Shown piece by piece: positions 29,701 through 32,700 of a stretch of DNA of 64,000 nt. This stretch comes from Escherichia coli (GTDB lineage Bacteria; Pseudomonadota; Gammaproteobacteria; Enterobacterales; Enterobacteriaceae). The stretch lies in the NCBI RefSeq assembly GCF_003790525.1, contig NZ_CP033635.1; one strand, written 5' to 3'. The position numbers were made by a program. Each line of letters opens with the position of its first letter. The stretch's first letter is position 1.

Positions 29701-32700
29701 ACTACGGTCCGCTGAATGGTCAGAAATTGATTTTGATAATGCCCTGTGGACAATCCCTGAAAGCCGCATGAAAATGCGACGTAAACATGTCGTACCACTG
29801 TCACGACAGGCCACTGACATTCTGCTGCAGCTCAAAACTTTCTCCGGACAATACCGGCTGGTTTTCCCGGGACGTTGTGATATCAACAAGCCAATGAGCG
29901 AAGCCAGCATCAATATGGTGCTCAAACGTATCGGTTACGATGGCAGGGCAACCGGTCATGGTTTTCGTCACACCATGAGTACCATTCTGCACGAACAGGG
30001 CTTTAATTCTGCCTGGATTGAAATGCAGTTAGCTCATGTGGATAAAAATTCCATCAGGGGTACCTATAATCATGCCCTGTATCTCGATGGTCGCCGTGAA
30101 ATGATGCAATGGTACGCTGACTACATTGATTCACTTTCCATCCAGGAGAGTTAATTACACTTTGTCCTGAAATTATTCTCACAATCAATAACCTTTCCCT
30201 CTGATCTGTAAGATCAGAGGGATTCCGTTAACTTACAATAAGTGATATTGGTTGTCTGGAGATTTAGGGGGACGGTCTACTATAATAATTAGCAGGAGAT
30301 AATATGTCACTTAAGGCGATTGCCACTGCACTCGGAGTTTCTGTCACCACTGTCAGTCGGGCTCTTGGAGGCTATGCAGATGTGTCAGCTTCCACCCGTG
30401 CACGGGTGGAAGCTGAAGCTCGTCGACGCGGTTACCGTCCTAATACTCAGGCAAGAAGACTCAAAACCGGTAAAACCGATGCTGTCGGTCTGGTTTATCC
30501 TGGACGTGATGTGCCATTTAACAGTGGTGTTTTTATGGATATGGTCAGTTGCATCAGCCGGGAACTTGCTCACCATGATATTGACTTACTACTGATAGCT
30601 GATGATGAGCATGCCGATTGCCACAGCTATATGCGGCTTGTTGAAAGTCGCAGGGTTGATGCTCTCATCATTGCACACACTCTGGATGACGATCCCCGTA
30701 TCACACACCTTCATAAAGCAGGTATTCCATTTCTGGCTCTTGGTCGGGTACCATCTGGTCTGCCCTGTGCGTGGTTTGACTTTGATAATCATGCCGGGAC
30801 TGGACAGGCAACCCAGAAACTGATTGCTTTGGGACATAAACGTATTGCATTGTTGAGTGAAGACACTTCACATAGCTATGTTGTTGCAAGACGTCAGGGA
30901 TGGCTTGATGCACTGAATGAGCATGAACTGGAAGATACATGGCTGCGGCTGGTTTCTCCCACACGGCGAGCAGGATATCAGGCCGTGATGGAGTTAATGT
31001 CACTACCGATACCACCAACAGCTATTATTACTGACAATGACCTGAGTGGAGATGGTGCTGCCATGGCACTGCAGTTGAGCGGTCGTCTTTCAGGAAAAGA
31101 TGCGGTATCTCTGGTTGTATATGATGGTTTGCCACAGGACAGTATTATTGAGCTGGATGTGGCTGCAGTTATTCAGTCAACACGAAGCCTCGTTGGTCGC
31201 CAGATTTCCGAGATGATATATCAGATAATTACTGATTCATCATCAAAACCACTACAGGTTGTCTGGAACCCGGTATTTTATCCGGGAAAGACGATTCATC
31301 CTCCTTGCTCCTGATTTTTTTATCCAGCTCACATATCCGAAACGTTTTGGTTGATACCCGAAACGTTTCGGATCAACAGTAAGGCATCCCTGAGAAAGGA
31401 GAATGTCTTATGGTTTCAAAGTACTGCAGACTGAGCAGTCCTCGCTCTGATTTAATTATTAAAACCCGTCCACATGCAGAAATTATCTGGTGGGGCTCTG
31501 CACTGAAACATTTCTCACCGGATGACTGTGCCAGCCTGGAAAGACCGGTTGCGAATGGTCGTCTGGATATTGATACGCCACTAACACTGATGGCTGAAAA
31601 TGCCCTGGGACTTTTTAGCTCTCCGGGACTGGAAGGACACAGGAATGGGCTGGATGCATCTCCTGTTTTTTATACAGTTGACGTGGAACATACCGAAAAC
31701 ACTCTGAGACTTACCAGTGAAGATTCGGTAGCCGGCCTGCGTCTGGTCAGCGAGCTGGTGATGACGCCATCAGGAATTCTGAAAGTTCGTCATGCACTGA
31801 CCAACCTCAGAGAGGGGGACTGGCAGATAAATCGTTTCGCCATCACTTTACCTTTAGCGGAACGTGCGGAAGAAGTCATGGCTTTTCACGGACGCTGGAC
31901 TCGTGAATTTCAGCCGCACAGGGTACGTCTCACTCATGATGCTTTTGTTCTGGAAAATCGCAGAGGGCGGACATCTCATGAGCATTTTCCGGCGCTGATT
32001 GTCGGCACGCCAGGCTTCTCGGAACAACAGGGAGAGGTGTGGGCTGTGCATCTGGGGTGGAGTGGAAATCACCGCATGAGATGTGAGGCAAAAACTGACG
32101 GCAGGCGTTACGTTCAGGCTGAGGCTCTGTGGATGCCGGGTGAGAAGGCTCTCAGGAAGAATGAAACCCTGTACACCCCGTGGCTATATGCCTGCCACTC
32201 TGCGGATGGCCTGAATGGAATGAGTCAGCAATACCATCGTTTTTTGCGTGATGAAATTATCCGTTTCCCTGAGCAAAAACCCCGCCCTGTACATCTCAAT
32301 ACCTGGGAAGGTATTTATTTCAATCACAATCCTGATTACATCATGCAGATGGCTGAGCGTGCAGCAGCACTGGGCGTTGAACGTTTCATTATTGATGATG
32401 GCTGGTTTAAAGGACGTAACGATGACCGCGCGGCTCTGGGCGACTGGTATACCGATGAACAGAAATACCCGAACGGGCTGATGCCGGTTATTAAACATGT
32501 GAAATCTCTCGGTATGGAATTTGGCATATGGGTTGAGCCGGAAATGATTAACCCGGATTCTGACCTGTTTCGTCTTCATCCTGACTGGGTATTGTCAATG
32601 CCTGGATATTCCCAGCCAACCGGAAGATATCAGTATGTTCTTAACCTGAATATTCCAGAGGCCTTTGCTTACATTTATGAACGTTTCTTATGGTTACTGG

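What the first reader, a model, noticed from the sequence alone, without database searches (positions are those of the whole stretch)
31333..31378. Two near-identical palindromic operators upstream of rafA
A CGAAACGTTT palindrome is duplicated about 20 bp apart, matching a two-operator arrangement for the LacI-type repressor.
Basis: partly seen in the sequence, partly recalled or inferred. Interest (0 to 1): 0.3.

Follow-up and report, generated by a model that had tools for sequence, protein, structure and literature searches.

The report
Known twin RafR operators before rafA
These are the two long-known binding sites for the raffinose repressor RafR, placed on either side of the -35 box of the promoter for the raffinose-utilisation genes; they are real and strongly conserved, but ordinary and already described.

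Summary
Two near-identical palindromic sites lie 21 bp apart in the 95-bp gap between a LacI-family repressor gene and an alpha-galactosidase gene. O1 core is CCGAAACGTTTTGG (31337-31350) and O2 core is CCGAAACGTTTCGG (31358-31371). The 10-mer occurs four times in the window against 0.17 expected. The genes are rafR-rafA-rafB-rafD-rafY, carried on an integrase island at a tRNA-Phe gene of an E. coli chromosome. The repressor's exact sequence carries the UniRef name RafR. The 46-bp operator stretch is identical in raf plasmids such as pIP1206. The same twin site, with 21-bp spacing, sits between rafR and rafA orthologues in 48 other Enterobacterales species, although RafR itself has diverged to 56-67% identity. 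A TTGATA -35-like hexamer lies between the sites. A conserved CRP half-site abuts O1, and a conserved AACAnT -10-like hexamer follows O2. The published titles on raf O1/O2 (Aslanidis, Muiznieks and Schmitt, 1990-1994) and a comparative study of LacI regulons describe this arrangement. The best reading is two RafR dimers on one DNA face occluding a CRP-dependent promoter, released by melibiose or raffinose. This is already known and of low interest. Side notes include a natural 21-bp operator-fusion deletion, an allele with exactly mirrored operators, and look-alike twin sites in Rhodobacterales.

The parts
30304..31314 (+). rafR, an intact LacI-family repressor of 336 aa
   Evidence: ORF. Pfam LacI HTH at residues 3-47 and Peripla_BP_1 at 58-316. 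The exact sequence is named RafR in UniRef. It is 332/336 identical to the plasmid allele, with an identical DNA-binding domain.
31315..31336 (.). Putative CRP site: TTTTA-N6-TCACA centred at 31325.5, with a strong right half at TCACA 31329-31333 and a weak left half. It abuts O1.
   Evidence: Read from the sequence. TCAC is invariant in 48/48 other species at columns the scan did not condition on. The CRP assignment is an inference from the consensus plus my recollection of the 1994 raf paper.
31335..31352 (.). Operator O1, ATCCGAAACGTTTTGGTT (core 31337-31350). The left half is consensus; the right half departs at two positions.
   Evidence: Identical in raf plasmids. The T at 31348 that breaks the palindrome is present in 46/48 species.
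31351..31356 (+). -35-like hexamer TTGATA between the two operators, overlapping the right end of O1
   Evidence: Sequence. TT at 31351-31352 is near-invariant while the rest varies (TTTGTA, TTGGCA, TTGTTA and others). It is lost in the 21-bp deletion allele L005.
31356..31373 (.). Operator O2, ACCCGAAACGTTTCGGAT (core 31358-31371, a perfect 14-bp palindrome)
   Evidence: The commonest form across species is the perfect 18-mer ATCCGAAACGTTTCGGAT, in 31/48.
31375..31380 (+). Predicted -10 hexamer AACAGT, 18 bp after TTGATA. The predicted start is near 31386-31388.
   Evidence: AACAnT is conserved at unconditioned columns: A 47, A 47, C 44, A 44, variable, T 48 of 48. The simple promoter scan did not call it because it is too weak a match. 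This is a prediction; no transcription start was mapped here.
31396..31401 (+). Shine-Dalgarno AAGGAG, 8 nt before the rafA ATG
   Evidence: Sequence.
31410..33536 (+). rafA, a GH36 alpha-galactosidase of 708 aa
   Evidence: Pfam Melibiase, Glyco_hydro_36N and 36C. RefSeq annotation of an identical locus.
33599..34876 (+). rafB, a LacY-type oligosaccharide permease
   Evidence: PF01306 at 3e-208 and TIGR00882. The start is taken from the RefSeq annotation of the identical locus.
34876..36306 (+). rafD, a GH32 invertase
   Evidence: Glyco_hydro_32N and 32C, and the scrB family.
36501..37895 (+). rafY glycoporin
   Evidence: PF16966 'Porin-like glycoporin RafY' at 3.5e-148. No RafR-type site lies upstream of it.
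28718..30154 (+). tRNA-Phe (28718-28793) and the P4-type integrase (28970-30154) that mark the left end of the island carrying raf

Best explanation
These are the twin operators O1 and O2 of the raf (raffinose) operon promoter, in a chromosomal island copy that is base-for-base the same as the plasmid-borne copy. A RafR dimer binds each palindrome through its HTH recognition helix (VSVTTVSR), with a hinge-helix leucine at the central CpG. The centres are 21 bp apart, which is two helical turns, so both dimers sit on one face of the DNA. O1 covers the stretch between the CRP site and the -35 hexamer. O2 covers the spacer up to the -10 hexamer. Together they deny RNA polymerase, and probably its CRP-assisted docking, access to a weak CRP-dependent promoter. 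The inducer, melibiose or raffinose, releases RafR. What is shown here: the sites, their spacing, their statistical excess, their gene context, an intact cognate repressor, and their conservation. What is inferred: RafR binding, dimer stoichiometry, the promoter and CRP assignments, and the identity of the inducer. Those rest on the literature and on family knowledge.
For: The site is statistically in excess and unique in the window. The spacing is exactly 21 bp. It lies in the rafR-rafA gap of a rafRABD-rafY cluster. RafR is intact, has a DNA-binding domain identical to the plasmid allele, and carries the UniRef name RafR. The 46-mer is identical in pIP1206, p123, p_dm728_NDM5 and the W2-5 chromosome. 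Alleles found by similarity rather than by the motif keep two sites 21 bp apart at 89%, 80% and 65% RafR identity. The twin motif, whose chance expectation in 298 Gb I calculate at about 0.02, was found in 52 species. In 48 Enterobacterales it lies between rafR and rafA orthologues. Columns the scan did not condition on are also near-invariant: CC before each GAAACG, TCAC of the CRP half-site, and GGAT plus AACAnT after O2. The hinge leucine and the central CG fit the LacI-family binding mode described in PMC2329647. On the literature side, the three raf operator papers are cited in PMC13056197 together with melibiose as the RafR ligand, and PMC4052901 reports that the RafR regulog has only double sites 21-22 bp apart, suggesting obligatory cooperative binding.
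Against: No binding or expression data can be produced here. The primary raf papers are not held, so the match of these exact bases to the footprinted O1 and O2 rests on titles, on my recollection and on sequence identity to raf plasmids. The promoter scan did not call a sigma-70 promoter here, so the -35, -10 and start-site positions are predictions. Conservation of the operator cores in the 52-species set is partly built in, because those loci were found with the motif.
Confidence: 0.93

Rival explanations
1. The pair acts mainly as an RNA or DNA hairpin. O1 and O2 are inverted copies of each other and form a 16-bp stem 20 nt after the rafR stop codon. That stem could end, roadblock or stabilise the rafR transcript and insulate rafA from read-through.
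For: The arms 31335-31350 and 31358-31373 are 94% complementary. The RNA fold is -26.7 kcal/mol with z = -3.5. No other terminator-like site lies between rafR and rafA on the + strand. In allele L007, O2 is the exact reverse complement of O1 through mirrored substitutions.
Against: No U-tract follows the stem. Any two similar palindromes must also be inverted repeats of each other, so the hairpin is an automatic by-product. Each site is palindromic on its own, and the half-site sequence matches a conserved recognition helix even in Rhodobacterales. L023 carries the O1 change without the mirrored O2 change. At best this is a secondary role, not an alternative.
Confidence: 0.05
2. The sites are bound by a different host LacI/GalR paralogue, for example a PurR-like protein whose box shares the AAACGTTT core, rather than by the adjacent repressor.
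For: The AAACGTTT core with a central CG is generic for CcpA/PurR-type LacI operators (and family knowledge).
Against: The twin site travels with rafR on plasmids, islands and chromosomes of 48 species. The flanking CCG/CGG bases that set it apart from other boxes are invariant. The literature assigns these sites to RafR.
Confidence: 0.01
3. The duplicated palindrome is a chance occurrence with no function.
For: None beyond the short length of the motif.
Against: There are 4 hits against 0.17 expected. The 33-bp twin pattern has a chance expectation I calculate at about 0.02 in 298 Gb, yet it is found in 52 species in the same gene context.
Confidence: 0.005

Closest known systems
[quoted passage not shown]
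   Same: Same genes (rafR-rafA-rafB-rafD-rafY). Same repressor, with the UniRef name RafR on the exact sequence. The 46-bp operator stretch is identical to present-day raf plasmids, including pIP1206, whose RafR allele (WP_000053332.1) is also the one on p123. There are two palindromes 21 bp apart flanking a -35-like hexamer, with a CRP-type half-site upstream.
   Different: The only difference is location. Here the cluster sits on an integrase island at a chromosomal tRNA-Phe (pheU side) rather than on a plasmid. RafR differs at 4 of 336 residues, all outside the DNA-binding domain. I could not read the original sequence figure to compare base by base.
RafR regulog of Enterobacteriales in the comparative LacI-family study (PMC4052901)
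   Same: Double sites only, 21-22 bp apart, upstream of raf genes. This matches what I found in 48 species.
   Different: None in kind. That study is computational, as is this one.
lac operon control region (LacI O1/O2/O3 with CRP at -61.5)
   Same: A LacI-family repressor, palindromic operators with a central CG, and a CRP-assisted weak promoter. The repressor gene lies immediately upstream and runs in the same direction.
   Different: LacI is a tetramer that loops DNA between operators 92 and 401 bp apart, and its main operator lies at the start site. RafR is 336 aa, and the LacI-family model alignment ends at residue 311, so no counterpart of LacI's C-terminal tetramerisation helix was found. 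Its two sites are adjacent at 21 bp and bracket the -35 box.
Other tandem LacI-family sites at about two helical turns (e.g. ScrR of Burkholderiales, named in PMC4052901)
   Same: Paired sites 21-22 bp apart, implying side-by-side dimers on one DNA face.
   Different: A different regulator, a different half-site sequence and different target genes.

Membership tests
raf operon twin operators (RafR O1/O2) | Located in the rafR-rafA intergenic region, upstream of rafA | tested here: met
   The sites at 31335-31373 lie between the rafR stop (31314) and the rafA start (31410).
raf operon twin operators (RafR O1/O2) | Two near-identical palindromes of about 18 bp with a central CG | tested here: met
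   O1 is ATCCGAAACGTTTTGGTT and O2 is ACCCGAAACGTTTCGGAT.
raf operon twin operators (RafR O1/O2) | Centre-to-centre distance of two helical turns (21-22 bp), flanking the -35 box | tested here: met
   Spacing is 21 bp. TTGATA lies between the sites. The same spacing appears in alleles found independently of the motif. PMC4052901 reports 21-22 bp. That TTGATA is the true -35 box is inferred.
raf operon twin operators (RafR O1/O2) | An intact cognate RafR repressor encoded next to the sites | tested here: met
   A 336-aa ORF with both HTH and ligand domains, 99% identical to the plasmid RafR, with the UniRef name RafR.
raf operon twin operators (RafR O1/O2) | Sequence identity to the operators of characterised raf plasmids | tested here: met
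   The 46-mer is identical in pIP1206, p123 and p_dm728_NDM5. pRSD2 itself is not in the collections, so the comparison is with its modern relatives.
raf operon twin operators (RafR O1/O2) | RafR binds both sites and an alpha-galactoside inducer releases it | not testable with these tools
   This needs EMSA or footprinting. It is reported in papers I could see only as citations.
CRP-dependent (class I type) promoter | A CRP site centred near -61 relative to a mapped start | tested here: inconclusive
   TTTTA-N6-TCACA is centred at 31325.5. The right half is invariant in 48 species and the left half is weak. The start site is only predicted (31386-31388), which puts the centre at -60.5 to -62.5.
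LacI-type looping tetramer system | A C-terminal tetramerisation helix and distant auxiliary operators | tested here: not met
   RafR is 336 aa, and its alignment to the LacI subfamily model ends at residue 311 of RafR and position 312 of the 358-position model. No further site with 2 or fewer mismatches exists in the 64 kb.

The most novel reading that the evidence does not exclude
The two operators may behave as one 39-bp composite palindrome that evolves in concert and does two jobs. It would serve as an obligately cooperative dimer-of-dimers site. When transcribed from the rafR promoter, it would also form a 16-bp hairpin that, with or without bound RafR as a roadblock, insulates rafA from rafR read-through. 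The hints are the exactly mirrored substitutions in the pS30-1 allele, the conserved weakening of the inner half of O1, and the absence of any canonical terminator after rafR.
Probability: 0.1. Interest if true: 0.3.

Novelty: already known. Interest (0 to 1): 0.07.

Why it matters
It matters little as a discovery. The raf O1/O2 operators were sequenced and footprinted around 1990-1994 and have been catalogued in comparative regulon work. The practical value is in annotation. It shows that the chromosomal tRNA-Phe island copy of raf, present in roughly 9% of complete E. coli genomes together with the plasmid copies, carries a regulatory region and an intact repressor identical to the characterised plasmid system, so it should be inducible in the same way. 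The very tight conservation of the whole control region across about 48 species makes it a clean natural example of adjacent-dimer repression, and a well-defined part for synthetic circuits built on LacI/GalR proteins.

Tried and rejected
(1) I tried to read the primary raf papers (PMC208720, PMC179467, PMID 8277949). None is held, so details such as the mapped start, the CAP footprint and the relative O1/O2 affinities are not cited as facts.

(2) A literal search of the paper library for the operator strings returned only unrelated primers and a zebrafish miR-722 paper.

(3) The consensus promoter scan did not call a rafA promoter. I therefore inferred -35 and -10 from position and cross-species conservation.

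(4) Rfam has no family at gathering score in the region. A sub-threshold mir-722 hit (31 bits against 81) simply reflects the hairpin shape.

(5) I looked for further RafR sites upstream of rafR and rafY, as a test of autoregulation or porin control. The only matches have 3 mismatches and lie inside coding sequence, no more than chance gives.

(6) Accession AM886293, the RafR source in PMC13056197, is not in the collections. From my own knowledge it is pIP1206, so I compared its RefSeq record NC_010558.1 instead.

(7) The Burkholderia plasmid homologue (43% identity) has no such site nearby.

(8) I did not run the costly metagenome and protein-database scans, because the answer was already clear.

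Full report
**Observation.** The stretch 31333-31378 reads ATATCCGAAACGTTTTGG TTGATA CCCGAAACGTTTCGGATCAACA. The 10-mer CGAAACGTTT occurs at 31338 and 31359 on the + strand and, read on the other strand, at 31361-31370 inside the second site. With one unrelated copy inside rafY (37620-37629), that makes 4 matches against 0.17 expected, and none of 100 shuffles reached 4. The repeat finder reports an 18-nt direct repeat (31333-31350 and 31354-31371, 89% identical) with 21-bp start-to-start spacing. It also reports that the two copies are inverted repeats of each other. The palindromes proper are CCGAAACGTTTCGG (O2, perfect) and CCGAAACGTTTTGG (O1, one mismatched pair). No other site within two mismatches exists in the 64 kb.

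**Context.** The sites lie in the 95-bp gap between a 336-aa LacI-family gene (30304-31314) and a 708-aa GH36 alpha-galactosidase gene (31410-33536). After these come a LacY-type permease, a GH32 invertase and a porin that matches Pfam's 'glycoporin RafY' family.

- The exact repressor sequence is in the public collection under the UniRef name 'HTH-type transcriptional regulator RafR'.
- The cluster follows a tRNA-Phe gene (28718-28793) and a P4-type integrase.
- The window is E. coli chromosome, and the island sits on the dsbD side, which is pheU.
- In strain W2-5 the same island sits at the other tRNA-Phe, next to yqgA.
- The rafR-rafA junction is found in 468 of 5,426 complete E. coli genomes, at 315 chromosomal and 190 plasmid places, and in 173 PLSDB plasmids.

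**Identity with the plasmid system.** RafR here is 332/336 identical to the common plasmid allele, with an identical DNA-binding domain. The 46-bp stretch spanning both operators is identical in pIP1206, p123, p_dm728_NDM5 and the W2-5 chromosome.

**Conservation found without using the motif.** These alleles were recovered by DNA or protein similarity to rafR, and they keep two sites exactly 21 bp apart.

- The alleles at about 89% identity have an unchanged O1 core and an unchanged CGAAACGTTTCGG in O2.
- An allele with 80% RafR identity has CCGAATCGTTTCGG and CCGAAACGATTCGG.
- A Klebsiella quasipneumoniae plasmid allele with 65% RafR identity has CCGAAACGTTTTGG and CAGAAACGTTTCGG.

**Conservation found with the motif.**

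- I scanned one genome per species (298 Gb) for GAAWCGTTTYGG-N9-GAAACGWTTCGG. My calculated chance expectation is about 0.02, and the scan gave 52 species.
- In 48 Enterobacterales the site lies between rafR and rafA orthologues, with RafR 56-67% and RafA 65-77% identical to the window. These include Enterobacter, Klebsiella, Raoultella, Lelliottia, Leclercia, Buttiauxella, Kluyvera, Pluralibacter, Franconibacter, Dickeya, Rouxiella, Providencia and Moellerella.
- The operator cores were conditioned on by the scan, but many unconditioned columns are also near-invariant:
  - CC before each GAAACG (48/48).
  - TCAC at 31329-31332 (48/48).
  - TT at 31351-31352.
  - GGAT after O2.
  - AACAnT at 31375-31380 (A 47, A 47, C 44, A 44, variable, T 48).
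- The T at 31348 that spoils the O1 palindrome is present in 46/48 species, so the weaker inner half of O1 is itself conserved.

**Anatomy and proposed mechanism.** A -35-like TTGATA (31351-31356) lies between the sites and overlaps the right end of O1. The conserved AACAGT sits 18 bp downstream and is the best -10 candidate, which puts the start near 31386-31388. A CRP-type site, TTTTA-N6-TCACA, is centred at 31325.5. That is about -61 relative to the predicted start, and it abuts O1. On this numbering O1 is centred near -42.5 and O2 near -21.5. The simple promoter scan does not call this promoter, which fits a weak, activator-dependent promoter, but it also means these assignments are predictions.

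RafR has the LacI-family HTH (recognition helix VSVTTVSR) and a hinge with a conserved leucine. That matches the family's mode of inserting a leucine at a central CG step (PMC2329647). RafR is 336 aa, and its alignment to the LacI subfamily model ends well before that model's C-terminus. So I infer a dimer, with two dimers bound side by side on one DNA face, since 21 bp is two turns. Bound RafR would occlude RNA polymerase and the CRP-polymerase contact region. Melibiose is the ligand reported for RafR (PMC13056197).

**Comparison with what is known.** The reference list of PMC13056197 cites three papers:

[quoted passage not shown] PMC4052901 states that the RafR regulog of Enterobacteriales has only double sites 21-22 bp apart, suggesting obligatory cooperative binding. 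My own recollection of those primary papers is that there are two 18-bp palindromes flanking the -35 box and a CAP site centred about 60 bp upstream. That agrees with the anatomy above, but I could not read them. The finding is therefore a correct re-identification of a known element. All sequence-testable membership criteria are met, and binding itself is untestable here.

**Rivals.**

- *RNA or DNA hairpin.* O1 and O2 pair as a 16-bp stem in RNA (-26.7 kcal/mol, z = -3.5), 20 nt after the rafR stop, and there is no other terminator-like site. However, no U-tract follows, and two similar palindromes are automatically inverted repeats of each other. This is at most a secondary role.
- *A different LacI paralogue.* This is made unlikely by the strict co-occurrence of the sites with rafR.
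- *Chance.* This is excluded.

**Side observations.**

- Plasmid NZ_CP027551.1 carries a 21-bp deletion that fuses O1 and O2 into one operator and removes the -35 hexamer. Its rafR is also broken into two ORFs, so the locus is decaying.
- In the pS30-1 lineage, O2 is the exact reverse complement of O1 through mirrored substitutions. This lineage is present in 9 plasmids. Enterobacter sp. ENT03 has only one of the two changes.
- Two Rhodobacterales genomes carry the same twin core at 21-bp spacing. It lies after a LacI-family gene whose whole protein is about 30% identical to RafR. The N-terminal 70 residues, which hold the DNA-binding domain, are 53-56% identical, with recognition helix VSVTQVSR, and the site lies upstream of a sugar ABC-transporter binding protein.

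**Verdict.** The element is already known, and its interest is low.

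Noticed in passing
L005 (NZ_CP027551.1, E. coli plasmid), locus ~1330-1380; equivalent to window 31334-31354: A natural 21-bp deletion between the two direct-repeat operators leaves a single hybrid operator (TCACATATCCGAAACGTTTCGGATC) and removes the TTGATA -35-like hexamer. 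In the same record rafR is split into ORFs of 151 and 161 aa and carries no annotation, so the locus looks decayed.
   Followed up: partly
L007 4031-4069 (E. coli plasmid pS30-1, NZ_OY757114.1; the same allele is in 9 plasmid records): O1 (ATCCGAATCGTTTCGG) and O2 (CCGAAACGATTCGGAT) are each imperfect palindromes, yet they are exact reverse complements of each other. An A>T change in the outer half of O1 is mirrored by a T>A change in the outer half of O2. This could reflect concerted evolution of the inverted repeat, hairpin selection, or symmetric selection on the outer half-sites. L023 has only the O1 change.
   Followed up: partly
L019 2205-2237 (Phycocomes zhengii) and L033 10096-10128 (Meridianimarinicoccus roseus): Two Rhodobacterales genomes carry the same twin GAAACGTTTCGG sites at 21-bp spacing. 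They lie downstream of a LacI-family regulator that is only about 30% identical to RafR overall. Its N-terminal 70 residues, which hold the DNA-binding domain, are 53-56% identical (recognition helix VSVTQVSR against VSVTTVSR). The sites lie upstream of a sugar ABC-transporter binding protein rather than an alpha-galactosidase.
   Followed up: partly
L038 10220-10290 (Planctomycetales MAG): The motif match here falls in a run of ~11-bp periodic TTCGGAAA-like repeats with no raf or LacI gene nearby. It is unrelated to raf operators, and its nature is unknown.
   Followed up: no
window 28670-28793 and upstream; compare L001: The raf island is integrated at the tRNA-Phe next to dsbD/yjdC (pheU) in this window, an arrangement covered in 196 genomes. 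The same island, 99.9% identical from 48 bp before the tRNA, sits at the other tRNA-Phe next to yqgA (pheV) in strain W2-5.
   Followed up: partly
A deliberately weaker inner half of O1, next to the -35 hexamer, therefore seems to be selected.
   Followed up: partly
window 34876-36306 (rafD), compared with loci L020, L025, L030, L035, L046: No rafD (GH32 invertase) homologue was found in any of the 52 species loci, including those with 7-12 kb held downstream of the operators. The invertase therefore seems specific to the E. coli plasmid and island form of the cluster. RafY homologues appear in only a few loci and at varying positions.
   Followed up: partly
window 14804-14850 (- strand): Rfam Guanidine-II (mini-ykkC) riboswitch match above the gathering score (50.4 bits, E = 5e-7) in the core-genome part of the window.
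   Followed up: no
window ~51760-64000 (- strand), by correspondence with L062: The distal part of the same island carries several cargo genes, by RefSeq annotation of a 99.99% identical record. They are a type I restriction-modification system with a large DEAD/DEAH helicase and an AAA ATPase, and a cluster of thymidylate synthase, an XRE regulator, a MazG-like protein and a dGTPase-family protein. This looks like defence or nucleotide-metabolism cargo.
   Followed up: no
window 31335-31375: A sub-threshold Rfam hit to the zebrafish mir-722 precursor (31 bits against a gathering score of 81) appears on both strands. It is an artefact of the O1/O2 hairpin shape and the shared AAACGTTTTGG string.
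   Followed up: yes
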